Below, in pieces: positions 20,351-62,544 of a stretch of DNA of 64,000 nucleotides. Location of the stretch: sequence record OQ174504.1; one strand, 5' to 3'. The notes under the pieces were generated by a model. The model made no database searches. It had not been told where the DNA came from and worked only from the letters and a program-made list of their open reading frames with translations. The stretch's first letter is position 1. Every line of letters begins with the position of its first letter. Made by a program: the position numbers and the translations under genes. This DNA is from Escherichia phage REP5.

Positions 20351-21967
20351 TCAACGTCTAAGCCCCTCATATGGGTTTCCTCTCACTAAGTCTGTGTGAG
20401 CACCCATTGATGGTGGCTTGAATAATTTAACTTCGTTCAGACTGTTGAAAGCATCACTGGTAGCATCCACTTGGTCATCTTTAGTTTTACCATCGCCACA
20501 AAAGCCTTCAAGCTCTTGAAAGTAAGCTTCATTCCAACTACCCCTTAAGACTTTTACAAGTCCAGCTTCAGAAGCAGCAGAAAATCCCGCAAAGCGGGTA
20601 ACTTTATCTTTATTTGTTGGTTTGGCTCTTGCTCGATAACCTTTCTCGGCAAGTTTCCTGATGAGGGATGTTGCGTAGGATTTACCAGCAGCGCCTGGGT
20701 CTTGAGGGATAAAAATACCAGTTCGCTTACCGTCACTTTCAGCAGTCAAATTAATTTGTGTTTCGACTCCGGAGGGTCTATCTCTAAATCTTACTACATC
20801 AATGATATAATAGCAACCGTCTTTTTTAGATTTACCCATCTTAACACCTGCTGTCCAGTCTGGATTAGGGTTAACCTCAGATGGTAAAGTTGCTGCTAAG
20901 TCCCATGCTCTAACATCAAATACATCCTCTGGGAGTGAATCAACAATCTCACACCATTGTCTTTGCCAATAGTTTGAACCTTCTGCACGAGCCTTCCAGT
21001 TACCGAAACGAAGTCTTGCAACGTTTACAGGAGTGTTGTTTTCAAGCTTACCGCGATACTTTGGTTCTAAGAAGTCAAGAATTGGGTTATCATCAATCGT
21101 ACCAGAGATGAAGGTGTATGTTTGAGGAATCTCAAGAGGGAACATTTCAAGAATCTTGTCTCTCTCCCAATCAGAAACCATCACACCATCATTCATTACA
21201 TACCAACGAATACGACCACACTTTTCAGGGTCTGGATAACCTTCTTCATCTAAGAATGGTTCTACCCAATCATAAATAAAATGGTCTCTGTCTGGGTTCA
21301 TGGAAATCTTCATGTATGAATCGCCTTCAGCACCAGAACGTAGACGGGTTTGTAGGTATGAAATCTGTGAAGCAGAGAAGTGTGTACCTTCGTCAAAGTA
21401 AATAGCTGAGTATTCAATACCCTGATGACCTTCAGCGTGCTTTTCAAGTTCTAGGTAGGTGAACTTAATAGTTGCCCCAGAAGGGAATGTGATAGTCATC
21501 TTCTGCTCGTGAGGAACCCCACCAAACTTACCAAATAGTTTCTTTGCAGCAGGCCATAAACCACCTTGTAACTGTGTTGTATTTCGACGGAAATACACAG
21601 CATTATAGTTAGGGTCTTCAATAAATCTTAAAGAGTCCATTAACAATGCAGCAGTTTTACCAGCACCAGCAGCACCACCATAGAGAACCAAGTCAGCATT
21701 AGTATTTAAAAAGACCTCTTGAGAACCCGGTTGAGGGGCTACATAGTTCTTATCAGTCATCAATTTAAAGATGAGGCGAACTTGGTCTGGTGTGTATCTT
21801 AATAAAGTCAGAATTTGAGTTGGAAGGAATTTAGAGGGGTCTTTACCGAATGATTTGATAATTTCTTTTACTTCATCAGAAAGCCCCAACTCTCCAGCTA
21901 GGACTTTCCTAACATCTTCCACTCGCTTCTGCTTAACAGCATTTAAGTCCATTAAGCGCCTCCGCAA
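20351..21967 (-). CDS. terL: terminase large subunit
   Basis: 538-aa ORF with Walker A LYGGAAGAGKTAAL; size and position typical. Confidence 0.9.
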   Translation of the reverse strand: MRRRLMDLNAVKQKRVEDVRKVLAGELGLSDEVKEIIKSFGKDPSKFLPTQILTLLRYTPDQVRLIFKLMTDKNYVAPQPGSQEVFLNTNADLVLYGGAAGAGKTAALLMDSLRFIEDPNYNAVYFRRNTTQLQGGLWPAAKKLFGKFGGVPHEQKMTITFPSGATIKFTYLELEKHAEGHQGIEYSAIYFDEGTHFSASQISYLQTRLRSGAEGDSYMKISMNPDRDHFIYDWVEPFLDEEGYPDPEKCGRIRWYVMNDGVMVSDWERDKILEMFPLEIPQTYTFISGTIDDNPILDFLEPKYRGKLENNTPVNVARLRFGNWKARAEGSNYWQRQWCEIVDSLPEDVFDVRAWDLAATLPSEVNPNPDWTAGVKMGKSKKDGCYYIIDVVRFRDRPSGVETQINLTAESDGKRTGIFIPQDPGAAGKSYATSLIRKLAEKGYRARAKPTNKDKVTRFAGFSAASEAGLVKVLRGSWNEAYFQELEGFCGDGKTKDDQVDATSDAFNSLNEVKLFKPPSMGAHTDLVRGNPYEGLRR

Positions 21968-22386: not shown

Positions 22387-22462
22387 TAAAATAACTTGGA
22401 GAATCCGAAGGGACTCGAACCCTTATAAACCTGTTTTGCAGACAGGCACATATCCATTTCTG
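22387..22462 (-). tRNA. tRNA-Cys (GCA)
   Basis: Manual fold: acceptor GAATCCG/CGGATTC, anticodon stem CCTGT/ACAGG, loop CTGCAAA, T-loop TTCGAGT, encoded CCA. Confidence 0.6.
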
Positions 22463-22466
22463 TCAC

Positions 22467-22559
22467 GGATTCAAATTGGAGGAAGATACCAGACTTGAAC
22501 TGGTACACCGATTTCTCAGCTACTGGCAGTTTAGCAAACTGCTCCCTTACCTTTTAGGG
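22467..22559 (-). tRNA. tRNA-Ser (GCU), type II
   Basis: Acceptor GGAAGAT/ATCTTCC, anticodon stem GCAGT/ACTGC, loop TTGCTAA, long variable arm, CCA. Confidence 0.6.
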
Positions 22560-22570
22560 TTAATCTTCCA

Positions 22571-23305
22571 TTATTTCTGTAATGCGCTCTTCATTTCTGG
22601 TGTTGCAATAGTGTCAATTACACCAGTTTTACAAGCATCATCAAACCAGTCTGGTAAGATACCTGCTAAGAACCCATTGATATTCGTTTTAAGGTACTCT
22701 GCAATAAGGGCAGCTTCTTCTTCAATCATCTGCACAACTTCATCTGCATAAGCTGTAATCTTTGAGATACCTTCATTAATCTTGCTAACAGCTTGGTTAG
22801 CTAAATCAGAAACAGTATCAAGACCTTTATCAATAGCATCTTGTAAGTCACTTAATACATCATTAACACCGTCTAGTGCACTGTTCATCATGTCAATAGC
22901 TTTTTGACCATGTTCTGTAGCAACACCCATAATACCACTGAATGGTGTACAACCAACTTGTTCTCCTGCTGCACCCATAACATTGGAATACCCCTTTGCT
23001 ACCTGCATACGTGATGAAAACTCATCAATAGACTTTTGACCGTAGTCTGTTAGGGTCTTAGTAGTTGCTGTAGTGCTTGTAAGGCTTGTTGTAAAGCTGT
23101 TTAGAAGGACTGTTGTAAGTCCAGCAGCAACAAGTTTCTCCTTCATTGTAGGGTCTGTTACAGAACTAATAGAGCTTACAAGTGATGTAGAAGCAGCTAC
23201 GGTTCCACCGAGGACTGCTGCACCAGTAATAAGTGGGTTAGAAAACCCTTTACCGGTTTTTAAGAGATTAAAAATCTCCTTACCTTGTTCTGTCATCTCT
23301 TTCAT
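22571..23305 (-). CDS. hypothetical protein embedded in tRNA cluster
   Basis: ORF 22571..23368 trimmed to an internal Met to avoid overlap with tRNA-Phe. Confidence 0.35.
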   Translation of the reverse strand: MKEMTEQGKEIFNLLKTGKGFSNPLITGAAVLGGTVAASTSLVSSISSVTDPTMKEKLVAAGLTTVLLNSFTTSLTSTTATTKTLTDYGQKSIDEFSSRMQVAKGYSNVMGAAGEQVGCTPFSGIMGVATEHGQKAIDMMNSALDGVNDVLSDLQDAIDKGLDTVSDLANQAVSKINEGISKITAYADEVVQMIEEEAALIAEYLKTNINGFLAGILPDWFDDACKTGVIDTIATPEMKSALQK

Positions 23306-23323
23306 TAAGCACCTTTGAAATTG

Positions 23324-23398
23324 GTAGTCCAGTGGGATTTGAACCCTCTTCTCATGTTTTTCAGACACGCGCTTTAACCATATAAGCTACTTGGACTA
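23324..23398 (-). tRNA. tRNA-Phe (GAA)
   Basis: Acceptor TAGTCCA/TGGACTA, anticodon stem CGTGT/ACATG, loop CTGAAAA, T-loop TTCAAAT. Confidence 0.55.
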
Positions 23399-23403
23399 TA
23401 AAT

Positions 23404-23479
23404 TGGGGTGACCTACGGGATTTGAACCCGTATAGACCATGTTCACAGCATGGGTCATTACCATTTATGATAAGGCCAC
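23404..23479 (-). tRNA. tRNA-His (GUG)
   Basis: D-stem TCAT/ATGA, anticodon stem CCATG/CATGG, loop CTGTGAA, CCA. Confidence 0.6.
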
Positions 23480-23510
23480 ATTTAAGGATTCTCGTAAGAA
23501 CCCTTAGAAG

Positions 23511-23586
23511 TGGCAGCGGCATAAGGATTTGAACCTTAATAGGACAGCTTCAGAGACTGTTGCATTGCCAGTTATGCTATACCGCT
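23511..23586 (-). tRNA. tRNA-Gln (CUG)
   Basis: D-stem GCAT/ATGC, anticodon stem ACAGT/GCTGT, loop CTCTGAA, T-arm TAAGG-TTCAAAT-CCTTA. Confidence 0.55.
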
Positions 23587-23591
23587 AAATT

Positions 23592-23670
23592 TGGTACTCC
23601 ATATCGGATTCGAACCGATACATAACACAGATTTTAAGTCTGGCCTCTCTGCCAATTGGAGTAATGGAGC
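23592..23670 (-). tRNA. tRNA with anticodon UAA (Leu-type) but short variable arm
   Basis: Anticodon helix CAGA/TCTG with loop CTTAAAA; Leu-like D-arm CCAATTGGCAGAG; A73; T-arm ATCGG-TTCGAAT-CCGAT; no long extra arm. Confidence 0.45.
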
Positions 23671-23672
23671 AT

Positions 23673-23748
23673 TGGCGGGGGATGTTGGAATTGAACCAAC
23701 TTCTTCGATTTCAAAGACCGAGGTTTTAACCTTGTAAACTAATCCCCT
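23673..23748 (-). tRNA. tRNA-Gln (UUG)
   Basis: Anticodon stem TCGGT/ATCGA, loop CTTTGAA, T-arm GTTGG-TTCAATT-CCAAC. Confidence 0.5.
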
Positions 23749-23756
23749 TTAAATCT

Positions 23757-24314
23757 TTACTTTCTCAGTGGATGAATAAAGAATGCCAACATAACTCTTT
23801 CCCTTGAGAATGCTCTTTCTTCTGGGACAACGCTTTTTAGTTTCCATCCAATATAAATTCTCCAGTAAAACTGTTTACCAAAGACTTTAATTGATGGGAT
23901 AAAAGCGAATAATCCCCAAGCATTACTGTTCCACATTAGGAGATAACCAGTCTGATTATCTTCAGGGTCAGAACTTACGTTGATATTACCTTTCCACTTA
24001 GTAACATCTTTTACATCTCTTCCTAATACATGGTAAGAGAAGTTATAAGCTTTGTTTCTCCAGAGCCACCCAACTCTCTGCATATAGACACCAAGCTTAC
24101 CAATCTTTCTAATTTTAGCCCATCGTTTAACGTGACCTTCATCACCATCAATTGGGTTGTCATATGTCTCCATCCATCTGAAGCCGAAAGGTAAGTGTCC
24201 TTTCTTCTCACTGTAAAATGGAACTACGAAAGGTGCTAAGATAACTGCTAAGATTGCTGCAAATGGCTCTAACAAAGCTAATAAAATCCATGAAGCATAC
24301 TTCAAATATCTCAT
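23757..24314 (-). CDS. membrane protein embedded in tRNA cluster
   Basis: 185-aa ORF with hydrophobic N-terminus ILLALLEPFAAILAVILAPFVVPF. Confidence 0.4.
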   Translation of the reverse strand: MRYLKYASWILLALLEPFAAILAVILAPFVVPFYSEKKGHLPFGFRWMETYDNPIDGDEGHVKRWAKIRKIGKLGVYMQRVGWLWRNKAYNFSYHVLGRDVKDVTKWKGNINVSSDPEDNQTGYLLMWNSNAWGLFAFIPSIKVFGKQFYWRIYIGWKLKSVVPEERAFSRERVMLAFFIHPLRK

Positions 24315-24333
24315 CTAAATAGCCTCTTTAAAT

Positions 24334-24409
24334 TGGCGCAGGATAAGGGATTCGAACCCCTATTAACAGCTTCGTAGACTGTTGCTCTATCCATTTGAAC
24401 TAATCCTGC
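24334..24409 (-). tRNA. tRNA-Arg (ACG)
   Basis: Acceptor GCAGGAT/ATCCTGC, anticodon stem ACAGT/GCTGT, loop CTACGAA. Confidence 0.6.
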
Positions 24410-24414
24410 AAAAT

Positions 24415-24492
24415 TGGTGTTCCAAGACGGATTCGAACCGTCACTAGTACAAGGTTTGAGCTTGCATCCTCTGCCAATTGGGATACTGGAAC
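24415..24492 (-). tRNA. tRNA with anticodon CAA (Leu-type) but short variable arm
   Basis: Anticodon stem GCAAG/CTTGT, loop CTCAAAC; D-arm CCAATTGGCAGAGG; A73. Confidence 0.45.
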
Positions 24493-24493
24493 A

Positions 24494-24568
24494 TGGTACT
24501 CACTAAAGGACTTGAACCTTTTTCTTCATCTTGTAAGGGTGGTGTTTTACCATATAAACTAAGCGAGT
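24494..24568 (-). tRNA. tRNA-Val (UAC)-like, weak anticodon stem
   Basis: Loop CTTACAA; anticodon stem CCACC/GATGA has two C-A mismatches; acceptor and T-arm intact. Confidence 0.4.
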
Positions 24569-24571
24569 ATG

Positions 24572-24658
24572 AAAGAGGTCTGAAGTTGTGCCGCTAACTC
24601 AACTCCGTGGAATTTGTTACGGTCTTCAGTTGACACCAGCGGTCTTTCACTTGACCTC
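24572..24658 (-). ncRNA. tRNA-like structured element / possible pseudo-tRNA
   Basis: 7-bp terminal helix AGAGGTC/GACCTCT enclosing ~73 nt with internal hairpins but no canonical T-loop. Confidence 0.2.
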
Positions 24659-24663
24659 TGAAT

Positions 24664-24740
24664 TGGTGCTGCTCACAGGACTCGAACCCGCATTTCCATC
24701 CTTACAAGGGATGTGTAATAGCCAATTATACGAAAGCAGC
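24664..24740 (-). tRNA. tRNA-Thr (UGU)
   Basis: Anticodon stem CATCC/GGATG, loop CTTGTAA. Confidence 0.6.
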
Positions 24741-24747
24741 ATTAATT

Positions 24748-24822
24748 TGGAGCATCCAGAGGGAATCGAACCCTCAACCTCAGTTTGGAAGACTGTAATT
24801 TTCCCGTTTAAACTATGGATGC
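24748..24822 (-). tRNA. tRNA-Gly (UCC)
   Basis: Acceptor GCATCCA/TGGATGC, loop CTTCCAA. Confidence 0.6.
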
Positions 24823-24828
24823 ACTAAT

Positions 24829-24904
24829 TGGTGGAGAAGCAGGGAATTGAACCCTGTACTTAAGTTTGCAAAACTTATGTTTTAACCATGTAAACTACAT
24901 CCCC
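24829..24904 (-). tRNA. tRNA-Ala (UGC)
   Basis: Anticodon stem TAAGT/ACTTA, loop TTTGCAA; G3-U70 wobble pair present. Confidence 0.6.
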
Positions 24905-24910
24905 AATGTC

Positions 24911-24986
24911 TGGTACAGGTGGAGGGAATTGAACCCATCGTCTTACTGATTAAGAGTCAGCCGCATAACCATTTTGCTACACCTGC
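24911..24986 (-). tRNA. tRNA-Lys (CUU)
   Basis: Anticodon stem GCTGA/TCAGT, loop CTCTTAA. Confidence 0.5.
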
Positions 24987-24993
24987 ATTAATT

Positions 24994-25071
24994 TGGTAGG
25001 AGACAAGGGATTCGAACCCTCAAACATCTCGTTCTAAGCGAGATAGGTTTACCAATTACCGTCAATCTCCC
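24994..25071 (-). tRNA. tRNA with anticodon UAG (Leu-type) but short variable arm
   Basis: Anticodon stem TCTCG/CGAGA, loop CTTAGAA; D-arm GTAATTGGTAAAC; A73; 5-nt variable region. Confidence 0.45.
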
Positions 25072-25316
25072 ATTAAGTCTTTTTAGAGAACTTCTAAGAA
25101 CCTAAGCAACAAGGTTCCACAACAAGCTGTAATAACCTTAGAAGCCCTCTAAAAAGACCTAAAAAGGTCTTTGCATAGTCTTGTTTAATCCGGTGACTAG
25201 AACCTTTGGAGAGCTTGATATTATCTCTTCTCCGTGACACCTACTAGGTGTTTTATCAATGTGTACAACAATACACGCGGTATACCAAAGCAACATCCGA
25301 ATGAAGCTTGGCTTTA

Positions 25317-25406
25317 AATCTTATTAGGCGGTAAGTAAAGGAGTCGAACCCTCACCGTATCTCTACAGTGGCAACTGTTTTCAAGACAGTTTGGCTACCA
25401 TTAGCC
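25317..25406 (-). tRNA. tRNA-Ser (UGA), type II
   Basis: Anticodon stem ACTGT/ACAGT, loop CTTGAAA, ~20-nt variable arm, T-loop TTCGACT. Confidence 0.55.
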
Positions 25407-25429
25407 GCTACCTACCCCTAATAAGACTT

Positions 25430-25512
25430 TGGCATGGGACGGAGGAGTTGAACCCCTTTGAAACGGTGTTGGAAGCCGTTGCTCATGCCTTAGAGTCTTA
25501 ACATCGTCCCAT
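25430..25512 (-). tRNA. atypical tRNA-like gene (Gly-UCC-like loop with 2-nt expansion)
   Basis: Acceptor ATGGGAC/GTCCCAT with CCA; T-arm AGGGG-TTCAACT-CCTCC; anticodon helix ACGG/CCGT enclosing 9-nt loop CTTCCAACA. Confidence 0.3.
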
Positions 25513-25644
25513 ACTATAATTCGAAGCTTACCGTATTATCTCAACACTGTAAAGCCCCTTCTCAGATTATTTACATGTTCTGGAAAACATGAGATACAGA
25601 CCACCTCCCTACAGGAAGACCCGCTTAGGTCGTCTAAGTAATCT

Positions 25645-25721
25645 GCTAACTATTTGGCACACCCTACAGGATTCGAACCTGTAACTCAATGATTAGAAGT
25701 CATTTGCTCTGTCCAGTTGAA
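25645..25721 (-). tRNA. tRNA-Arg (UCU)
   Basis: Anticodon stem AATGA/TCATT, loop CTTCTAA. Confidence 0.6.
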
Positions 25722-25934
25722 CTAAGGGTGCATTAATCTTTAAAGACTCTCTTAGAAAGCCCTTAAAGATGCCCACCTTATTAATCATACCGTGGGCTAG
25801 TACGCCAAATTCTTTGATGAGGGATTGGAAGACCTCACTGGTGTTTAGCCTATCAAGCTACTGCCAGAAAAACATTGTCGTTTGCATTTATTTTAAATTT
25901 GCAAAATAGACGCTACGCAACGAAAACTAAGGTT

Positions 25935-25963
25935 ACTATAAAGTGGTCACATCTCAGTGTCAA
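25935..25963 (-). promoter_or_regulatory. sigma70-like promoter inside tRNA cluster
   Basis: Minus-strand TTGACA, 17-nt spacer, TATAGT; points leftward into a ~200-nt leader then tRNA-Arg(UCU). Confidence 0.4.
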
Positions 25964-25978
25964 CAACTTTATTGAAAT

Positions 25979-26054
25979 TGGTACTGTGAGAAGGATTCGA
26001 ACCTTCTGCCTTTCGGTTATCAGCCGAATGCACATCCATATGTGCTTTCACAGC
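25979..26054 (-). tRNA. tRNA-Ile (GAU)
   Basis: D-stem GCAC/GTGC, anticodon stem TTCGG/CCGAA, loop CTGATAA. Confidence 0.6.
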
Positions 26055-26056
26055 TT

Positions 26057-26133
26057 TGGAGGTTCAGATGGGAATCGAACCCACATTCATAGGGCTTATG
26101 AGACCCTTGCATTACCTTATCTGCGACTGAACC
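26057..26133 (-). tRNA. tRNA-Met (CAU)
   Basis: Acceptor GGTTCAG/CTGAACC, anticodon stem AGGGT/GCCCT, loop CTCATAA. Confidence 0.55.
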
Positions 26134-26137
26134 ATTT

Positions 26138-26213
26138 TGGTAGAAGTGGAGGGATTCGAACCCATCGCCTGTCAGATTAAAAGTCTGCCGCATCACCATT
26201 CTGCTACACTTCC
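26138..26213 (-). tRNA. tRNA-Lys (UUU)
   Basis: Anticodon helix GCAG/CTGA-type with loop CTTTTAA; T-loop TTCGAAT; CCA. Confidence 0.55.
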
Positions 26214-26217
26214 ATTA

Positions 26218-26361
26218 AATTATCTTTGTAGATAAGCTACCCAGACTTGCTTAAGGTCTGTAGCGATGTGCCTTGTTGGGTTTAAATCTAGAATTTACCC
26301 TTTCACCCTTTGTGGTCGCATACTCACAGGTAAGCTTAATAACTTATCTACAAAGATAATT
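26218..26361. repeat. 19-bp perfect inverted repeat (AATTATCTTTGTAGATAAG) flanking ~106 bp
   Basis: Left arm 26218-26236 is the exact reverse complement of right arm 26343-26361. Confidence 0.6.
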
Positions 26362-26400
26362 ACCAGACCGTTGTTTATCATCTTAAGTGCTACCATTACA

Positions 26401-26440
26401 CCAACTCGACATCTGCCGAGTGAAGGAATCGAACCTTCAC
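26401..26440 (-). pseudogene. tRNA remnant (3' half only)
   Basis: Intact T-arm GAAGG-TTCGATT-CCTTC and acceptor-like 3' strand, but no complementary 5' acceptor found upstream. Confidence 0.25.
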
Positions 26441-26474
26441 CTTTTCTTTACCGGAGAAATAGATTGTTTAAGTT

Positions 26475-26497
26475 TTGCTGTAAACGGTCTTCTGTAA
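26475..26497. repeat. tRNA-cluster repeat element, copy 1
   Basis: TTGCTGTAAACGGTCTTCTGTAAA. Confidence 0.55.
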
Positions 26498-26563
26498 ATT
26501 TGTTGAGCCAGACCAAGTTTTAAATTTTTCAAAATTAAATTGGCTTGAAATTTTCATACGTTC

Positions 26564-26586
26564 TTGCTGTATTTGGTCTTCTGCTC
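26564..26586. repeat. tRNA-cluster repeat element, copy 2 (diverged)
   Basis: TTGCTGTATTTGGTCTTCTGCTC. Confidence 0.45.
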
Positions 26587-26643
26587 CTTTAAAGAATACT
26601 CGTAAGAACTCTTTAAGGGAGGGGCTAAATAGCCCTCTCAAAA

Positions 26644-26729
26644 TTGGCGGCTACGATGAGACTTGAACTCACATCATCTCCCAATATCCTTTTACGTGGG
26701 AGTATTTTAACCAAATTAAACTACATAAC
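26644..26729 (-). tRNA. type II tRNA, anticodon unresolved (possibly degenerate)
   Basis: 86 nt; acceptor GGTTATG/CGTAGCC with CCA; T-arm GTGAG-TTCAAGT-CTCAT; Leu-like D-arm; anticodon region CACGTAAAA with only a 3-bp stem. Confidence 0.35.
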
Positions 26730-26734
26730 CTTTA

Positions 26735-26822
26735 TTGGTGTGCCGTGTAGGAGTCGAACCTACCGAGTCTCAATGACAAGGGATTTACAGTCCCCACCGC
26801 TACCATCTACGGGATAACGACA
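26735..26822 (-). tRNA. tRNA-Tyr (GUA), type II
   Basis: Anticodon stem GGGGA/TCCCT, loop CTGTAAA, long variable arm, T-arm GTAGG-TTCGACT-CCTAC, CCA. Confidence 0.55.
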
Positions 26823-26830
26823 CATTTAAA

Positions 26831-26906
26831 TTTGCGGTTAGTCAGGGATTCGAACCCTGTGCCATTCGCTTAACAGGCGACCGCACATACCTTATGTGCT
26901 TCCTAA
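26831..26906 (-). tRNA. tRNA-Asn (GUU)
   Basis: D-stem GCAC/GTGC, anticodon stem GTCGC/GCGAA (one mismatch), loop CTGTTAA. Confidence 0.55.
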
Positions 26907-26966
26907 CCATATTTAGTATTACCAGACCGTATCTTTCAATTTTTTCCGCTAAAAATTTGATAAGTG

Positions 26967-26990
26967 TTGCTGTAAACGGTCTTCTGTAAA
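26967..26990. repeat. tRNA-cluster repeat element, copy 3
   Basis: TTGCTGTAAACGGTCTTCTGTAAA, directly abutting the 3' end of the tRNA at 26992. Confidence 0.55.
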
Positions 26991-26991
26991 A

Positions 26992-27068
26992 TTGGAGGCG
27001 GGTGCAGGAGTCGAACCTGCCGATACCATGCTAATGAGACATGTGAGACGCCCTTTCTCTATACCCGC
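26992..27068 (-). tRNA. second CAU-anticodon tRNA (Met, fMet or Ile2)
   Basis: D-stem GAGA/TCTC, anticodon stem CATGT/GCATG, loop CTCATTA; 1-72 mismatch. Confidence 0.5.
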
Positions 27069-27133
27069 AATTCTTAATGACCAGACCAAATCTCTTCTTT
27101 GTCCGATTTACCTTCAGATGAATAAGATTAAGT

Positions 27134-27157
27134 TTGCTGTAATTGGTCTTCTGTCAA
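27134..27157. repeat. tRNA-cluster repeat element, copy 4
   Basis: TTGCTGTAATTGGTCTTCTGTCAA, abutting the 3' end of tRNA-Glu. Confidence 0.5.
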
Positions 27158-27160
27158 AAC

Positions 27161-27238
27161 TGGCGTTCCAGAAGGGATTTGAACCCTCAGATATCCACTT
27201 TGAAAGAGTGGTGACTATACCATTTTGTCTACTGGAAC
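27161..27238 (-). tRNA. tRNA-Glu (UUC)
   Basis: Acceptor GTTCCAG/CTGGAAC, anticodon stem CCACT/AGTGG, loop CTTTCAA. Confidence 0.6.
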
Positions 27239-27245
27239 ATTAATT

Positions 27246-27325
27246 TGGTCTCCGTTGAAGGATTTGAACCCTCGACCCCTTGCTCCCAAAGCAAGTGCTG
27301 CTAAACCAAACTGAGCTAAACGGAG
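27246..27325 (-). tRNA. tRNA-Pro (UGG)
   Basis: Anticodon stem CTTGC/GCAAG, loop TTTGGGA, T-arm GAGGG-TTCAAAT-CCTTC, CCA. Confidence 0.55.
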
Positions 27326-35311: not shown

Positions 35312-35740
35312 ATGAAAGAGCATGTAGGTAAAGAGCTTGACATTGTAGATGCAAAGACACAGAGATATATAACTACTGTTAAGTTTCTTGGAATTAGTGA
35401 TATGAGTGATTTTTATCCTCTCCACTGCATAGTGCTAGACAAATTTGAGGTTTGTGGTATTAATTTTAATGAGGATAACTTTATAAGCTTTGATAAGGAC
35501 GGTTTCTGGCGTGGTAAGAACCACCCTCAAGCAAATGATTTTGATATGCGTCTAGTGATACCACAAAAAGGTAACCAACAAAACGTAAAAGATATCCTTG
35601 TAGAAGCCTATGCAGAAGGTATAATAGATGTTGTGAATGATGTTGAAAAAGCTTTAAAACTCATCATGCCACATTTAGAATCTGGAAAGCTGACTTTAGA
35701 GATGCTTAATAGGGTTATTCGGAGAGCTTATGAAAATTAA
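35312..35740 (+). CDS. hypothetical protein
   Basis: 142-aa ORF. Confidence 0.4.
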   Translation: MKEHVGKELDIVDAKTQRYITTVKFLGISDMSDFYPLHCIVLDKFEVCGINFNEDNFISFDKDGFWRGKNHPQANDFDMRLVIPQKGNQQNVKDILVEAYAEGIIDVVNDVEKALKLIMPHLESGKLTLEMLNRVIRRAYEN

Positions 35741-36269
35741 AGAAGTTGAAGGTAACTATCTAGTCCTTGATTGGAGTGATGTTCAAGAAGCACTCTCCAA
35801 AGAGAGTCTTAGCATACTAGAGCAACTTATCTTCTCAGTACGGCATATCAGAGAAGTTAAAAATGGTAAAGAGCCACTTGAAGGAATCTTTGTAGAGAAG
35901 TCTTATCCGTTCTATGAAGACACCTTGCAGAAAGTTAAAATGTACTTTAAACAGAAGAACCGTAAAGTGGTCACTATGGTATCTCTTGGTGGACAGAGTA
36001 TGTCTGTGATGGAAGATATCAACCCTAAGAGACCGAGTAAAGGCGTTTGTATAAAAATCACAGGACATGAAGAGTATATCTCAGTGGATGACTTTAGTGC
36101 ATTCTGTAATGGGTCTTGTGTCTTTAATGGTTTTCACTATGATATCCGAGTATACCCAATCAAGGGAGATGATATCATGATGCAGGTATTCGATAACAAC
36201 AATGGATTCACTCATTTTTATCAGACAACCAAGTCATCACTGAAGACAGTTCTGGAAACACTGATTTAA
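35730..36269 (+). CDS. hypothetical protein
   Basis: 179-aa ORF; terminator downstream. Confidence 0.4.
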   Translation: MKIKEVEGNYLVLDWSDVQEALSKESLSILEQLIFSVRHIREVKNGKEPLEGIFVEKSYPFYEDTLQKVKMYFKQKNRKVVTMVSLGGQSMSVMEDINPKRPSKGVCIKITGHEEYISVDDFSAFCNGSCVFNGFHYDIRVYPIKGDDIMMQVFDNNNGFTHFYQTTKSSLKTVLETLI

Positions 36270-36280
36270 AATATCTTAAG

Positions 36281-36308
36281 AGCCTCCTTAATTGGGGGCT
36301 TTTTATTG
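36281..36308 (+). terminator. rho-independent terminator ending plus-strand block
   Basis: AGCCTCCTTAATTGGGGGCT followed by TTTTATT. Confidence 0.6.
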
Positions 36309-37920
36309 AGTAAAATTTACGAAATTTATATTTTTTATAAAATTTTATCGGTTGTCCCAACCTCTGGGTCACCATCATATGTGAATAAAAATATCTATCC
36401 TTCTTAACAACCTTCTTAATCTTACTCTCTATATATAGTTATATAGTACTATATAGTATCTTAGTATCTATCTAGTGGTCTTAATAGCCCTCTGTATAAG
36501 CCTTCTAACAAGCCCTCTAACAATCCTTCTAAACACTCTTCTAACAAGCCTTCTTAACAACCTATACAATCACCTTAACCATCTCTCTATACCCTCTTAG
36601 AAGCTCCTATACACCTCTTAATCTCTAGGTTACCTGTGTTACTTAACAGTAACCCATTATGTCAGCTATGTTACCCTCTATAGGTGTTCACTAGGTATTA
36701 CTAAGCCTCTATATAGACTGTTTTAACAAACTTAACAGGAATATCTTTACAGACCTTATCTCACAAGGTCTAACACGGTACTAACAAGGTATCTTATAAG
36801 CCTGTTTATGCCTGTATTTTTAAAAGACTGTCTAGGTAATTATTCAGAATTTTAAAATTTTTATAAAATAGGACTATCAAGTCATTTTTTAGGGTCTTTG
36901 AAGGAACTCAAAAATATCTGTAGAAGATGTATATCTGCTTGGTAGCCCTTAACAGCTCCCTTACAAGTACTTTGCAAAATTTTAAAATATCCTTAACAAT
37001 CTCTTAACAACTCTCTCAAGCTTTTAACATCTCTTTAGAGGTCTTAACAGATTCTTAACAGAACTAACAAGGCTGTAACAAGTTCTTAACAGTCAATACA
37101 TGGTCTTTACAGAGTCTTAACAGATGACTAACAAGAGCTAACAAGTTAATTTTTAAGAGTTATTTTGTTAAGATAATTAACAAGTTCCTAACAAGTGTTT
37201 AATCTTTTTAACAAGCTATTAACATGGTCACTATCTCTGGTCTTATCGTTCCCTTTCTTTCTTAGTGATTCTCTAAACATACCTCTTAAAAGCCCTCTAT
37301 AGCTCTTTGTAAGCTCTTTTAAGCCTCTTCCTAGTAATTACACCCCAACTATACAGACACCTATTTATAAGGCTTTACAGGAGCTTTAAAGGCTATGTCA
37401 AAGACTCTTACAAGGCTTTTACATGATTTTAACAGAGATTTAACAAGGGGCTAACAAGTCTCTAACAAGTGCCTTAAAAGCATAACTATGTAGGGATTGT
37501 TAAGAAATTGTTAAGAAAATGTTAAGGGGGCTAGCATTTACGTAACTTTTAAGCTACTTCAAAGTAACTTTATAGCCCCTATAACATACTTTTAAGACAC
37601 TATCAAGCCCTTTTTAATAGTTCACAAGATAGCTAACGAGATGATAAAGCTTACACCCTTATAAGGTTCTTTTAAGGCTCTAGAAAGCTCTATAAAGGGC
37701 TTTTTAAAGGGAGTTAATGCAATCCCTTAAGTTGGGTTGATAAGGCTGTTATAGGGCTTTATAGAGCGTTTAAATGGTTGCCCTTCCCTTTCGGGTTATG
37801 GGCTTATATTTAAGTTGATTTGATAAAAGGCTATAGGGTAGACTATAGAGTTATTGCTTTTTAAGGTCTGATAAGATTCTGGAAAGGAAAGGGAAAGGGT
37901 TGTATAAGGGATTTGATAAG
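36300..37920. repeat. 1.6-kb ORF-free repeat-dense region (TTAACAR / CTAACAAG family plus AT-rich TATA runs)
   Basis: No ORF of 60 aa or more on either strand; roughly 18 TTAACA and 9 CTAACAAG copies counted by eye between 36400 and 37460; CTATAGGG/TTTTAAGG/GGAAAGGG-type repeats 37500-37900. Confidence 0.7.
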
Positions 37921-37921
37921 A

Positions 37922-37946
37922 CGTAAAAAAGCCCCTATGAGGGGCT
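37922..37946 (-). terminator. rho-independent terminator ending the small-gene cluster
   Basis: Minus-strand hairpin AGCCCCTCATAGGGGCT followed by TTTTTT. Confidence 0.6.
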
Positions 37947-37964
37947 GTATAAAGGTATCTGGGG

Positions 37965-38234
37965 CTATTTAGCCCCGTTGCGTCGATTAGTTAGTGCCTT
38001 CTTTGTCGTAGTACAGGGAGACAATTTTTCTCCCCAATAGTGATAAGTATAACCATCCTTGAGAACTTCTTGTTTTGTTTCCTCCCAGAACTTTTCTGAA
38101 GGATTATAGCCTTTGATAGTCTGACTGATAAGACCTTTCACCATTTCAAAGGCGTTATCAGTTCCTACAATGTCAAATTTAACATCCAGAGAGGAAAAAC
38201 CGAACTCGTTAGCAGTAGCGCGGATAGTTGCCAT
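37965..38234 (-). CDS. hypothetical small protein
   Basis: 89-aa ORF with cassette-type RBS. Confidence 0.45.
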   Translation of the reverse strand: MATIRATANEFGFSSLDVKFDIVGTDNAFEMVKGLISQTIKGYNPSEKFWEETKQEVLKDGYTYHYWGEKLSPCTTTKKALTNRRNGAK

Positions 38235-61031: not shown

Positions 61032-61347
61032 CTTGTTGTTCAGGTAAGTTCGCTAAGCTTACCCCGCTTTATTCAAGCTGCTTACTGTCGCCAGTAAGTC
61101 CAGACTATATCTTCTACTTATTTCTAAGTAGCGTACCATTTCGAGTCGCTTGACCCTACACCGCTACATTCATCACGGTTAGTCGTTCGGCATTTAGATG
61201 TATTCAAACTCATATTCGAAGTTATTTGGCATGTAAGACCCCTATGTTGTATAGTTTCTTACATCGTACATCATTTAGCACAGGATTGTCTACATCTGTA
61301 GAGTTTCCCTGTTTAGGCACGTTTTAGATGAGCTATAGAGCTTGTTA
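61032..61347 (-). other. group I intron (ORF-less) in nrdD
   Basis: 316 nt between exons; P/Q/R/S-like elements TGCCTAAACAGGGAAA, AATCCTGTGC, GAACGACTAACC, AAGATATAGTC; P9-like hairpin CTTACTG-GCGA-CAGTAAG; 5' exon ends in U, intron ends in G. Confidence 0.65.
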
Positions 61348-62544
61348 ACCCATCGGCGAAATAACCTTGCCAGAACGCTCAAAAGCTTCTGCTACAGCAC
61401 CATGACCAGATACACTTAAGAAGTCTGGATACATTGCTTTAGAACAACACTCAATAGCTTTACTGTACAGGTGGCCTTGACAGATATTCTCATTGTGTCT
61501 CTTCTGGTCATAAATATAAACCAGTTTAGGGAATACAACAGGCTTCTTGCTCTTACCTTGTCCATTCATACGAACATCTAGGAGAGTACTTGCAATCATG
61601 TATTGCAGTCGGTTGTCTTCATTAGACATGTCTGAGTCAAGTAACCCAAATGTCAAAGTTGTGAATGCAAAATCCCCACGACTACAAGGTACAGTATTTA
61701 GTTTCATTTCAAGTGACTGGAAACCTTGAGTTAGCTCAATCTGTAGCTGCTCCATGACATAATTGTGGTGATGTTCTTTAGGAATACCATAAGATGCTGC
61801 TTTCTCAGCATGATAGCGTAGAGACTTCTTAGCATACGGTACAAGTACCTTATCAATCTCTGCTAAAGTAAAGCCACCAAATTGCTGTGCAGTTGCTGAA
61901 AGTACTACGTCACCAATAACCTGTAAGGCTGATAGTACAGATTTAGGTTCACAGTATTCAATGCCAGACATTTCAAAGCCACCTTTCAGTACTTTACCAA
62001 TGTCAAACAGGCAACAGTTGATACCACCAAAAATTAGGTCTCTTAAATCATGGATATAGATAAACCCTTTTTCAATGGCTTCCAATTCCTCTGGTGTTAA
62101 ATGGTACTGTTTAAAGATTTCTTTAGTCAGGTAACCACGGATAATTGAACCTTTCGTAGAAATTAAACTGCTGTCAAAGTTAGCATTTTCACGGTCACCT
62201 AAGAAGAGTGTATCTTTAGTCTTCTGGTAGAGTTCATCCCAGTTTTGAGCAACCTCTTTACGGTAATTTCTATATGTTGAGTAAGACTCATAAATCTCGT
62301 GATTGACTTCTGCCAAAGCACCCTCAACAATACTGTGAATATCATTTACTGAAACGAGTAAATTATTCTGCTTAGTAGATTTTACCAGAATCCTCATAAA
62401 TGCTGACTCAAGAGCTTGAGTAACATCTGGTGGAAGCTCTTTATAACCAACTCTGTTAGCTGACTTTGTGACTGCTGCTAAAACTTTTTTGATATCAGGT
62501 TCTTCAAGTGAGCCATTCTTTTTAATAATCTGTACTTTGTTCAT
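61348..62544 (-). CDS. nrdD: anaerobic ribonucleoside-triphosphate reductase, exon 1 (ATP-cone N-terminus)
   Basis: N-terminal ATP-cone-like VQIIKKNGSLEEPDIKKV; exon ends ...VISPMG before intron. Confidence 0.75.

What the first reader, a model, noticed from the sequence alone, without database searches (positions are those of the whole stretch)
36300..37920. 1.6-kb ORF-free, repeat-saturated locus at a convergent strand switch
The rest of the genome is tightly packed, yet about 1.6 kb here has no ORF of 60 aa or more on either strand. The stretch is filled with degenerate short repeats: (C/T)TAACA(A/G) and CTAACAAG (roughly 18 and 9 copies by eye between 36400 and 37460, often phased about 10-12 bp apart, e.g. 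36500-36560 and 37000-37200), TATA-type runs at 36300-36480, and a second flavour (CTATAGGG, TTTTAAGG, GGAAAGGG) at 37500-37900. It is bracketed by a plus-strand terminator (36281-36308) and a minus-strand terminator (37922-37946). Candidates are a replication origin or iteron field, a binding array for a phage DNA-binding protein (partition- or packaging-like), or a source of non-coding RNA.
Basis: seen in the sequence. Interest (0 to 1): 0.75.

Follow-up and report, generated by a model that had tools for sequence, protein, structure and literature searches.

The report
Phage genome ends: terminal repeat region
The gene-free, repeat-filled stretch is where this Felix O1-like phage's linear DNA begins and ends: a roughly 590-bp terminal repeat packed with evenly spaced short motifs that probably guide cutting and packaging of the genome. 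The terminal repeat is a known feature of this phage group, but the motifs have not been described in the papers I could search.

Summary
Window 36270-37964 has no ORF of 60 aa or more. It holds 26 YTAACAR motifs, against 1.2 expected from shuffles, and is flanked by convergent terminators.

The window is Escherichia phage REP6 (Felixounavirus). The deposited record is opened elsewhere, which hides that this locus contains the physical genome ends.

- **Ends mapped by homology.** Seven related records map an end to window 36941 (one to 36942) or 37531; four of them carry identical sequence at both ends. That makes 36941-37531 the 591-bp direct terminal repeat (DTR).
- **Experimental support.** In UAB_Phi87 the same conserved boundaries lie 614 bp apart. 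Its measured DTR is 608 bp.
- **Motif behaviour inside the DTR.** TAACA cores are more conserved than their spacers (97% vs 87%) and stay in helical phase. DTR length varies in 11-bp steps.
- **Architecture across the subfamily.** Direct motif copies fill the DTR and three inverted copies abut the right end. This holds in six Ounavirinae lineages. A Hafnia phage uses TCTTTACA instead.

Best reading: a concatemer-junction and packaging region whose motif arrays bind an unidentified phage factor. No small terminase is recognisable. An origin or a non-coding RNA is not excluded.

The DTR is known for the genus. I found no description of the arrays. Interest is moderate to low.

The parts
36281..36308 (+). 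Intrinsic terminator ending the rightward operon (last gene 35730-36269).
   Evidence: Stem 36284-36298 followed by CTTTTTATTG. Folds at -15.2 kcal/mol. Conserved in relatives.
36310..36345 (.). AT-rich block 1 (about 25% GC). It is partly deleted in some relatives and is 76% identical to block 2.
   Evidence: Direct repeat D13. Alignment gaps in allfine and ECP2307. GC 0.25.
36392..36790 (+). Left flank outside the DTR. It holds a TATATAG run (36430-36476), a 12-bp CTTCTAACAAGC tandem array (36486-36566, copy number variable) and scattered TAACA pairs (36723/36732, 36771/36782). TAACA occurs 10 times in the left flank as counted over 36300-36940.
   Evidence: TAACA 10 against 1.4 +/- 1.2 in shuffles of 36300-36940. 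Copy-number indels among relatives. Shares 8-mers with the DTR in direct orientation, z = 6.5.
36632..36663 (.). 32-bp insertion specific to REP6, containing the palindrome GTTACTTAACAGTAAC.
   Evidence: Absent from the six relatives shown. The 36630-36659 window is only 0.19 conserved across 20 relatives.
36836..36870 (.). AT-rich block 2 (TTTTAAAATTTTTATAAAATAG). Highly conserved, including in Mooglevirus.
   Evidence: Conservation 0.96. Invariant in HP1.
36926..36940 (.). Conserved block just outside the left terminus (GATGTATATCTGCTT|). Candidate left cleavage and recognition site.
   Evidence: Boundary pattern ATATCTGCTT|GGTAGCCC found (up to 2 mismatches allowed) in all 31 loci searched, 26 of which also show the right boundary; 27 of these loci were retrieved with a pattern overlapping it. 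TGT..ATAT is retained in Kolesnikvirus, Arno162 and Zyzzx.
36941..37531 (.). Direct terminal repeat equivalent, 591 bp. 36941 is the first base of the virion left end and 37531 the last base of the right end.
   Evidence: Four records carry identical sequence at both ends: ECP2307 592 bp, SPJ41 613 bp, I14.1 581 bp, HP1 570 bp. All four map to exactly these positions. pEP20, EcSzw_1 and NBEco004 start or end at the same place. HP1 annotates a repeat_region at both ends. UAB_Phi87 is 614 bp boundary to boundary, against 608 bp measured.
36960..36988 (+). Sigma-70-like promoter candidate pointing into the DTR: CTTACA, 17 nt, TAAAAT. It overlaps the most conserved block of the locus (TTTGCAAAATnTTAAnATATC).
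   Evidence: 9 of 12 matches. The block and a matching -35/-10 arrangement are kept in HP1, SUSP2, MM7, SB18, Arno162 and Zyzzx. Function not shown.
36948..37226 (+). Main array: 16 direct CTTAACA(A/G)-type motifs spaced 9-11, 20, 31 or 39-44 bp apart.
   Evidence: TAACA starts listed. Cores are 97.4% conserved against 87.2 +/- 2.6% for random placements, z = 4. Phase coherence peaks at 10-10.5 bp, R = 0.63-0.66.
37428..37469 (+). Second direct array: four TTAACA/CTAACAAG copies at exactly 11-bp spacing.
37497..37526 (-). Three inverted motif copies (TTGTTAAGAAA x3, 11-bp period) ending 5 nt from the right terminus. They form an inverted repeat with 36982-37010.
   Evidence: TRF 95% match. Inverted repeat I2, 86% complementary over 29 nt. 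The triple inverted copy next to the right end is conserved in HP1, SUSP2, MM7, SB18 and Arno162.
37532..37546 (.). Conserved block just outside the right terminus (|TAGCATTTACGTAAC). Candidate right cleavage and recognition site.
   Evidence: Pattern GGGGGC|TAGCATTTACG found, with a few substitutions, in 26 of 31 loci. GGCTA..CGTAA is kept in Kolesnikvirus.
37532..37920 (.). Right flank outside the DTR. It carries the second motif family (TWWARRG: TTTTAAGG, CTATAGGG, GATAAGG) in both orientations, plus a GGAAAG run at 37881-37899.
   Evidence: 14 against 3.4 +/- 1.8, and 12 against 2.2 +/- 1.5 for the complement. TRF rows. In MM7 the equivalent flank carries CTTAGAAG repeats.
37769..37815 (+). 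Conserved two-tier hairpin (core GCCC-TT-CCC-TTTC-GGG-TTAT-GGGC, 37780-37803) followed by TTATATTT. Possibly a weak + strand terminator or a DNA-level structure.
   Evidence: -16.1 and -15.7 kcal/mol in the two haplotypes. The second haplotype (GCCA...TGGC, CCCC/GGGG) keeps pairing through changes on both sides. Only two haplotypes exist, so the covariation evidence is thin.
37922..37946 (-). Intrinsic terminator ending the leftward operon (last gene 37965-38234, homologue of Felix O1 gp23).
   Evidence: Stem 37946-37930 followed by TTTTTT. -11.7 kcal/mol. The stem is kept while the loop varies in relatives.

Best explanation
The locus is the physical end region of the phage chromosome.

**What it is.** REP6 is a Felix O1-like myovirus whose virion DNA is linear with a short exact direct terminal repeat. 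The GenBank record was opened elsewhere, so both ends and the repeat sit in the middle of the window. The DTR is 36941-37531 (591 bp). On its left are 670 bp, and on its right 430 bp, of non-coding DNA into which the two convergent operons terminate.

**How it most likely works (inferred from the T7 paradigm).**
- Replication produces concatemers that carry one DTR copy per junction.
- The terminase (TerL at window 20351-21967) recognises the two conserved boundary sites and cuts at 36940|36941 and 37531|37532.
- The DTR is duplicated so that each packaged genome carries it at both ends.

**Role of the motif arrays (inferred).** The CTTAACA(A/G) motifs comprise about 20 direct copies in the DTR, more in the left flank, and three inverted copies abutting the right end. 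They are in helical phase. The most likely reading is a one-face binding platform for a sequence-specific phage factor that positions or assembles the cutting and packaging complex, or synapses the two repeats. That factor would stand in for the small terminase subunit these phages appear to lack.

**Confidence by step.**
- Identity as terminus plus DTR: about 0.9.
- Arrays are protein-binding sites under selection: about 0.7.
- Their job is terminus recognition or packaging: about 0.45.
For: **Shown here**
- The window is REP6 1-64000 at 100% identity.
- Four related records with identical sequence at both ends (570-613 bp) map their ends to exactly 36941 and 37531. Three more records start or end there. 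HP1 annotates these ends as repeat_region.
- Both boundary sequences were found, with at most a few substitutions, in 26 of 31 loci searched. Both boundaries are recognisably homologous in five other Ounavirinae lineages, and the left one also in Hafnia phage Zyzzx.
- In UAB_Phi87 the boundaries are 614 bp apart.
- TAACA cores inside the DTR are 97.4% conserved against 87.2 +/- 2.6% for random placements (z = 4, 0 of 20000 permutations).
- Motif spacing is coherent at 10-10.5 bp.
- DTR-equivalent lengths of 567-658 bp are quantised by 11 bp (R = 0.74, Rayleigh p about 1e-4).
- Erwinia phage MM7 has a 444-bp DTR filled with TCTTAACA, with three inverted copies at the same end.
- Hafnia phage Zyzzx has the same layout but uses TCTTTACA at 10-bp spacing.
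- TerL is present (Terminase_6N/6C). No small terminase is recognisable.

**From papers**
- UAB_Phi87 has a 608-bp DTR, shown by Bal31 digestion and run-off sequencing, and its TerL falls in a Felix O1-type DTR clade (PMC4837284).
- Pr103Blw has a 581-bp DTR by PhageTerm (PMC8303462).
- PhageTerm reported direct terminal repeats for all six Philippine coliphages, four of them felixounaviruses (PMC11737134).
- Felix O1 has only a TerL (PMC3185647).
Against: - No reads or virion DNA of REP6 itself were available, so its termini are inferred by homology only.
- The measured UAB_Phi87 DTR (608 bp) differs by 6 bp from the boundary-to-boundary distance (614 bp).
- MM7's deposited ends sit 2-3 nt away from the aligned REP6 positions. 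The exact cut sites are therefore uncertain by a few bases.
- Nothing shows which protein binds the motifs, or that any does.
- The distance from terminus to nearest motif differs between the two ends (9 nt against 7 nt). A simple symmetric cutting model is therefore not established.
- Eleven-base-pair tandem arrays also expand and contract by slippage, so length quantisation may reflect mutation rather than selection.
- An origin or a transcript could share the same DNA.
Confidence: 0.7

Rival explanations
1. Replication origin. The phased short repeats are iterons for a phage initiator or primase-helicase, and the AT-rich blocks (36310-36345, 36836-36870) are unwinding elements. This could coexist with the DTR.
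For: Direct repeats lie in helical phase. Two homologous AT-rich blocks each sit upstream of an array (D13). The whole locus is strongly conserved. Small TTAACA arrays with 11-bp spacing occur in many unrelated viral contigs and look iteron-like.
Against: There is only one strict DnaA-box match and no IHF consensus. The flanking genes match only families of unknown function. Cumulative GC skew follows gene orientation, not this locus. Motif copies abut both cleavage sites in opposite orientation, which an origin does not explain.
Confidence: 0.15
2. Non-coding transcription unit. A promoter at the left end of the DTR (36960-36988, + strand) drives an RNA of about 0.8 kb made of CUUAACA repeats, ending at the hairpin 37769-37815. 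Alternatively, transcription or RNA polymerase pausing across the junction is itself part of end processing, as at the T7 concatemer junction.
For: The promoter-like site scores 9 of 12. Its -35/-10 arrangement and the TTTGCAAAAT block are conserved across six lineages. The hairpin is conserved in two haplotypes that both keep pairing, and is followed by a T-rich run on the + strand only. TAA in every repeat blocks translation.
Against: No Rfam family matches. The region has 17 promoter-like hits against 9.9 +/- 3.1 in shuffles, and the motif itself resembles a -35 hexamer, so false positives are expected. The hairpin's U-tract is weak. No expression data were found.
Confidence: 0.15
3. Host-factor array. 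TTAACA and TTTACA are one-mismatch copies of the sigma-70 -35 hexamer TTGACA, and TAACARnnnnTTR is one mismatch from the IHF consensus. The arrays would therefore load host RNA polymerase, sigma or a nucleoid protein onto the incoming DNA ends.
For: Both motif variants in the subfamily keep TTnACA. There are seven TAACARNNNNTTR matches in the locus, at 4.1 per kb against 0.25 per kb across the window.
Against: No canonical IHF site is present. The -10 position downstream of array copies lacks the critical final T (sequence inspection). The resemblance is the only evidence. Nothing explains the inverted triple at the right end.
Confidence: 0.08
4. Functionless spacer. This would be slippage-prone low-complexity DNA tolerated between two operon ends.
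For: Copy number varies by 11-12-bp units between relatives.
Against: Identity is 85-94% across Felixounavirus and 78-81% to Mooglevirus and Suspvirus. Motif cores are more conserved than spacers. The architecture is retained in genera where most of the sequence no longer aligns.
Confidence: 0.03

Closest known systems
Short exact direct terminal repeats of Felix O1-like phages (UAB_Phi87 608 bp, Pr103Blw 581 bp; Felix O1 and FO1a said to be similar)
   Same: Same genus, homologous sequence and the same conserved boundaries. The length (591 bp) falls in the same range.
   Different: REP6's record neither annotates the DTR nor is opened at it. The papers I could read report DTR length only. They do not report its genomic position between ORF23 and ORF24, nor the motif arrays inside it.
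Phage T7/T3 concatemer junction: 160-bp terminal repetition flanked by arrays of short imperfect repeats, with pac signals and an RNA polymerase pause site (my own knowledge of Dunn & Studier 1983, Chung & Hinkle 1990, Zhang & Studier 2004; not retrieved here)
   Same: A short exact DTR in a non-coding region, with arrays of 7-8-bp motifs at roughly one helical turn next to the repeat. The DTR must be duplicated during concatemer processing. An inverted repeat could form a hairpin or panhandle intermediate (I2).
   Different: The phage is an unrelated myovirus with a T4-type TerL. The motifs lie mostly inside the DTR rather than only beside it. There is no phage RNA polymerase and no recognisable small terminase. 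The genes point toward the ends rather than away from the left end.
pac and cos recognition sites built from repeated short elements (P1 pac hexamers, lambda cosB R sites, SPP1 pacL/pacR) (my own knowledge)
   Same: Multiple short, phased protein-binding elements lie next to a terminase cleavage point.
   Different: Those phages use headful or cohesive-end packaging with a known TerS or Nu1. P1 elements contain GATC, which is absent here. This locus has about 30 copies spread over roughly 1.1 kb (36404-37526).
Iteron-type origins (lambda ori, P4 ori/crr octamers) (my own knowledge)
   Same: Phased direct repeats beside AT-rich DNA. P4 uses an 8-bp unit.
   Different: No initiator gene lies adjacent and there are no DnaA or IHF sites. 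The locus coincides with the genome termini.
Repeat-rich non-coding part of the phage T5 long terminal repeat (proposed injection-stop signal) (my own knowledge)
   Same: A non-coding, repeat-dense segment inside a terminal repeat.
   Different: The T5 repeat is 10 kb and carries pre-early genes. Two-step injection is not known for Felix O1-like phages. No sequence similarity was tested.

Membership tests
Ounavirinae short exact DTR (genome terminus) | The sequence is present once at each end of the virion DNA | not testable with these tools
   No REP6 reads or virion DNA were available. The inference is by homology only.
Ounavirinae short exact DTR (genome terminus) | Homologous positions are the deposited or experimentally determined termini in relatives | tested here: met
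   Ends of ECP2307, SPJ41, I14.1 and HP1 map to 36941 and 37531. pEP20, EcSzw_1 and NBEco004 agree. UAB_Phi87 is 614 bp against 608 bp measured.
Ounavirinae short exact DTR (genome terminus) | Boundary sequences conserved | tested here: met
   ATATCTGCTT|GGTAGCCC and GGGGGC|TAGCATTTACG were found, with at most a few substitutions, in 26 of 31 loci. They are recognisable in other genera.
Ounavirinae short exact DTR (genome terminus) | Large terminase of the Felix O1-type DTR clade | tested here: inconclusive
   TerL with Terminase_6N/6C lies at 20351-21967. No phylogeny was run. The clade assignment rests on PMC4837284 and on genus membership.
Iteron-type replication origin | Several direct repeats in helical phase | tested here: met
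Iteron-type replication origin | Adjacent AT-rich unwinding element | tested here: inconclusive
   AT-rich blocks lie at 36310-36345 and 36836-36870.
Iteron-type replication origin | Initiator gene adjacent, or host DnaA/IHF sites | tested here: not met
   Flanking proteins match only PHROGs of unknown function. There is one strict DnaA-box match and no IHF consensus.
Iteron-type replication origin | Replication initiates here | not testable with these tools
   Needs marker-frequency analysis or 2D gels.
T7-type concatemer junction | Short exact terminal repeat flanked by short-repeat arrays | tested here: met
   Arrays lie in both flanks and inside the DTR.
T7-type concatemer junction | Two-subunit terminase (gp18/gp19-like) and dependence on phage RNA polymerase | tested here: not met
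   No TerS was found. PMC3185647 reports that genes modifying the host RNA polymerase are absent from Felix O1; I did not scan the window for a phage RNA polymerase.
Described RNA family (Rfam 15) | Match at or near the gathering score | tested here: not met
   The only hit is Phe_leader at 24 bits against a 55-bit cut-off, E = 0.39, lying over the upstream terminator.
P1-type pac site | Dam-methylatable GATC-containing hexamers flanking the cut; headful packaging | tested here: not met
   GATC count is zero in the whole window. The exact DTR implies packaging that is not headful.

The most novel reading that the evidence does not exclude
The phased CTTAACA arrays are the loading platform for a so far unidentified sequence-specific terminus or packaging protein. 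This would apply across a whole phage subfamily that lacks a recognisable small terminase. The three inverted copies at the right end and the direct copies at the left end would direct opposite-strand cuts that generate the DTR. The A-to-T switch to CTTTACA in a Hafnia phage would mark co-evolution with that protein. A variant of this reading is that a conserved promoter in the DTR makes a repeat RNA that takes part in end processing.
Probability: 0.35. Interest if true: 0.55.

Novelty: new member of a known kind. Interest (0 to 1): 0.38.

Why it matters
**Practical value.** REP6 and most of the roughly 250 related GenBank records are opened arbitrarily and do not mark their true ends. The two conserved boundary sequences found here let anyone place the DTR in a felixounavirus genome without read data. 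For REP6 this predicts virion DNA of 87,152 + 591 bp. That helps annotation, engineering and genome rebooting of phages widely used for Salmonella and E. coli diagnostics and biocontrol.

**Biological value.** Felix O1-like phages have no known small terminase, and how they recognise their ends is unknown. A conserved, helically phased motif array with an inverted triple at one terminus, plus a natural motif variant, gives a concrete and testable handle on that question.

**Limits.** This is not a new kind of element. Terminal repeats with neighbouring short-repeat arrays have been known since T7.

Tried and rejected
- **Hidden coding frame.** Rejected. Internal ORFs are 41 aa or shorter. Relatives differ by indels of 1, 10, 11, 22 and 32 nt.
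- **Known RNA family.** No match.
- **DnaA, IHF, Chi or GATC sites as origin or host-factor marks.** None enriched.
- **Flanks as mirror images around the DTR.** Rejected. Left flank against the reverse complement of the right flank shares no more k-mers than shuffles do (z = 0.2-0.7). The left flank resembles the DTR in direct orientation instead (z = 6.5).
- **Small terminase search.** The 66-aa ORF upstream of TerL and the 95-residue N-terminal extension of TerL give no informative family match.
- **The neighbouring gene as the array binder.** It is the homologue of Felix O1 gp23, a 9.7-kDa virion protein. This is unsupported: the protein appears acidic by eye and has no domain match.
- **Is the motif array unique to Ounavirinae?** Scanning IMG/VR for three TTAACA copies at 11-bp spacing was not decisive. 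More than 100 unrelated contigs have small arrays of 3-8 copies. Only Ounavirinae contigs have 11 or more.
- **PC79-13's 127-bp 'repeat_region'.** This looks like an assembly overlap, not the true DTR.
- **Literature.** Searches for a description of these arrays, or for the T7 short-repeat arrays, found nothing usable.
- **DNA curvature.** Not computed, because I had no reliable parameter set.
Full report
**1. What the window is.** A megablast of 36200-38000 finds Escherichia phage REP6 (OQ174505.1) at 100% identity with identical coordinates. It also finds 256 related phage records, nearly all Felixounavirus. REP6's own annotation has a + strand operon ending at 36269 and a - strand operon ending at 37965, with nothing in between. 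Other records leave the same gap empty or mark only automatic 'repeat_region' and terminator features.

**2.
- No ORF of 60 aa or more lies inside the locus.
- YTAACAR occurs 26 times on the + strand and 3 times on the - strand in 36300-37920. Elsewhere in the window the density is about 0.5 per kb. Dinucleotide shuffles give 1.2 +/- 1.1.
- CTAACAAG occurs 9 times against 0.08 expected.
- No other 300-nt window in the 64 kb holds four or more copies.
- TRF and the repeat finder report 11- and 12-bp arrays and many inverted pairs.
- The second motif family in 37532-37920 is also enriched, in both orientations.
- Both bracketing terminators are found.

**3. What it is: the genome ends.** Many related records begin or end inside this locus. 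I fetched both ends of five of them.
- Four carry identical sequence at both ends: ECP2307 (592 bp), SPJ41 (613 bp), I14.1 (581 bp) and the Mooglevirus HP1 (570 bp). HP1 annotates these as repeat_region.
- All four map their left end to window 36941 and their right end to window 37531.
- Three further records (pEP20, EcSzw_1, NBEco004) start or end at the same positions, within 1 nt.
- The sequences across the two boundaries are ...GATGTATATCTGCTT|GGTAGCCCTTAACA... and ...AATGTTAAGGGGGC|TAGCATTTACGTAAC.... Both boundary patterns were found, with at most a few substitutions, in 26 of 31 loci searched.

*Published support.*
- Bardina et al. showed by Bal31 digestion and run-off sequencing that the Felix O1-like phage UAB_Phi87 has a 608-bp DTR. 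They also showed that its terminase falls in a Felix O1-type DTR clade (PMC4837284). In the UAB_Phi87 record the two conserved boundaries are 614 bp apart.
- PhageTerm gave 581 bp for Pr103Blw (PMC8303462).
- PhageTerm also reported direct terminal repeats for the six Philippine coliphages, four of them felixounaviruses (PMC11737134).

I therefore assign window 36941-37531 (591 bp) as REP6's DTR. This is an inference by homology, because no REP6 reads were available.

In Felix O1 itself the locus lies between ORF23 and ORF24. The Felix O1 genome paper inferred short terminal repeats. It did not place them and does not mention these arrays.

**4. Anatomy.**
- *Left flank (36270-36940).* It contains the terminator, an AT-rich block, a TATATAG run, a variable 12-bp CTTCTAACAAGC array, a 32-bp insertion specific to REP6, scattered TAACA pairs and a second, highly conserved AT-rich block.
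- *DTR.* It starts 9 nt before the first TAACA. It carries 16 direct copies up to 37224, then a motif-poor centre that resembles the right flank. Four copies at exact 11-bp spacing follow (37430-37467). Three inverted copies (37497-37526) end 5 nt from the right terminus.
- *Right flank (37532-37964).* It has the TWWARRG family, a conserved two-tier hairpin (37769-37815) and the - strand terminator.

**5. Evidence that the motifs are functional.**
- In a 21-sequence alignment, TAACA cores inside the DTR are 97.4% conserved against 87.2 +/- 2.6% for random placements (z = 4, 0 of 20000 permutations). Conservation falls to 0.76-0.85 in the spacers.
- In the left flank the cores look less conserved only because whole units come and go.
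- Pairwise spacings are coherent at 10-10.5 bp (R = 0.63-0.66), so the copies sit on one face of the helix.
- DTR-equivalent lengths across 31 genomes (567-658 bp) fall into classes 11 bp apart (R = 0.74, p about 1e-4). This could reflect slippage, selection for phase, or both.

**6. Conservation beyond the genus.**
- A sensitive search finds short matches in Erwinia, Pectobacterium and Hafnia phages, all in equivalent gene-free convergent gaps.
- Erwinia phage MM7 has a 444-bp DTR filled with TCTTAACA in the same orientation relative to the flanking genes. Three inverted copies lie next to the same end, and a different repeat (CTTAGAAG) fills the right flank.
- SB18 and Arno162 have homologous boundaries about 440-447 bp apart.
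- Hafnia phage Zyzzx keeps the left boundary and the TTTGCAAAAT block, but its array motif is TCTTTACA at 10-bp spacing.
- In a multi-genus alignment the best-conserved elements are TGT..ATAT outside the left end, TTTGCAAAATnTTAAnATATC about 30 nt inside it, and the three inverted motif copies plus GGCTA at the right end.

Keeping the layout while the motif changes by one base is what one expects of binding sites for a phage-encoded factor.

**7. Mechanism.**
- *Shown:* the items in sections 2-6.
- *Inferred from the T7 paradigm (my own knowledge):* concatemers carry one DTR per junction. The terminase cuts at the two boundaries, and the repeat is duplicated by synthesis.
- The opposite orientation of the motif copies just inside the two ends fits recognition by the same factor on opposite strands. 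It also makes a 29-nt, 86% complementary inverted repeat between 36982-37010 and 37497-37525, which could pair in a single-stranded intermediate.
- TerL is at 20351-21967. No small terminase could be recognised, in line with the Felix O1 paper. The array-binding factor is therefore unknown.
- The distances from terminus to nearest motif (9 nt and 7 nt) and the 2-3-nt offsets in MM7 mean the exact cutting geometry is not settled.

**8. Rivals.**
- *Origin.* Phased repeats beside AT-rich blocks fit. There are no DnaA or IHF sites and no recognisable initiator nearby, and skew is uninformative.
- *Non-coding RNA.* A promoter-like site (36960-36988, + strand) is conserved across genera. A conserved hairpin with a weak T-run lies about 810 nt downstream of its predicted start. 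There is no Rfam match and no expression data.
- *Host-factor binding.* The motifs are near-matches to the -35 hexamer and to the IHF consensus. This rests on resemblance only.
- *Junk spacer.* Contradicted by the conservation.

None of the first three excludes the DTR assignment.

**9. Known or new.** The DTR of Felix O1-like phages is established. REP6's is an unannotated instance of it. I found no description of the motif arrays or of the boundary sequences in the papers I could search. That corpus is incomplete. The closest analogue is the T7 concatemer junction with its flanking short-repeat arrays. Membership in that family fails on the terminase and RNA polymerase features. I rate the finding as a new member of a known kind, of moderate to low interest. 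Its useful lead is toward how a subfamily without a small terminase recognises its ends.

Noticed in passing
window 1-64000: GATC is completely absent: 0 sites against about 224 expected from base composition. GGCC, CCGG, GCGC and CGCG are also three- to six-fold depleted. The lack of GATC is already reported for the genus (VpaE1, PMC4690856; Alf5, PMC5477317).
   Followed up: partly
window 37769-37815 (+): A conserved two-tier hairpin (-16 kcal/mol) lies in the right flank, followed by TTATATTT. Two haplotypes among relatives both keep pairing (GCCC/GGGC against GCCA/TGGC). Its role is unknown: a terminator or a DNA structure. MM7 has a comparable hairpin about 300 nt past its right terminus.
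   Followed up: partly
window 37965-38234 (-): The gene next to the right flank is the homologue (82% identity) of Felix O1 gp23, a 9.7-kDa protein found in virions by proteomics. In REP6 its last roughly 10 residues differ and the protein is 7 aa longer. It has no domain match.
   Followed up: partly
window 36632-36663: A 32-bp insertion found only in REP6 among 21 aligned genomes. It contains the palindrome GTTACTTAACAGTAAC.
   Followed up: no
L016 (Hafnia phage Zyzzx MW749004) 2090-2430: The equivalent terminal region uses TCTTTACA at 10-bp spacing, often in pairs, instead of TCTTAACA at 11 bp. This is a natural specificity variant of the array.
   Followed up: partly
L049-L119 (IMG/VR contigs): More than 100 unrelated viral contigs carry small arrays (3-8 copies) of TTAACA at 11-bp spacing. 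One recurrent form, TTTAACAAAACTTTAACATTTCTTTAACAC, occurs in several AT-rich contigs. It is unclear what these are.
   Followed up: no
window 61081-61462 (-): Rfam group I intron match (53.6 bits, just above the 50-bit gathering score). A split nrdD interrupted by a homing-endonuclease gene is reported for the genus (PMC4837284); I did not check which gene holds this match.
   Followed up: no
window 22397-27325 (-): A cluster of 25 tRNA genes lies directly upstream of the TerL gene region.
   Followed up: no
L012/L013 (PP892526.1) and L006/L007 (OR687644.2): Two record problems. PP892526 (vB_EcoM_I14.1, 89 kb, Felix O1-like sequence) carries a Tequintavirus taxonomy line. OR687644 (PC79-13) is labelled circular, and its 127-bp end 'repeat_region' looks like an assembly overlap rather than the true DTR.
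   Followed up: no
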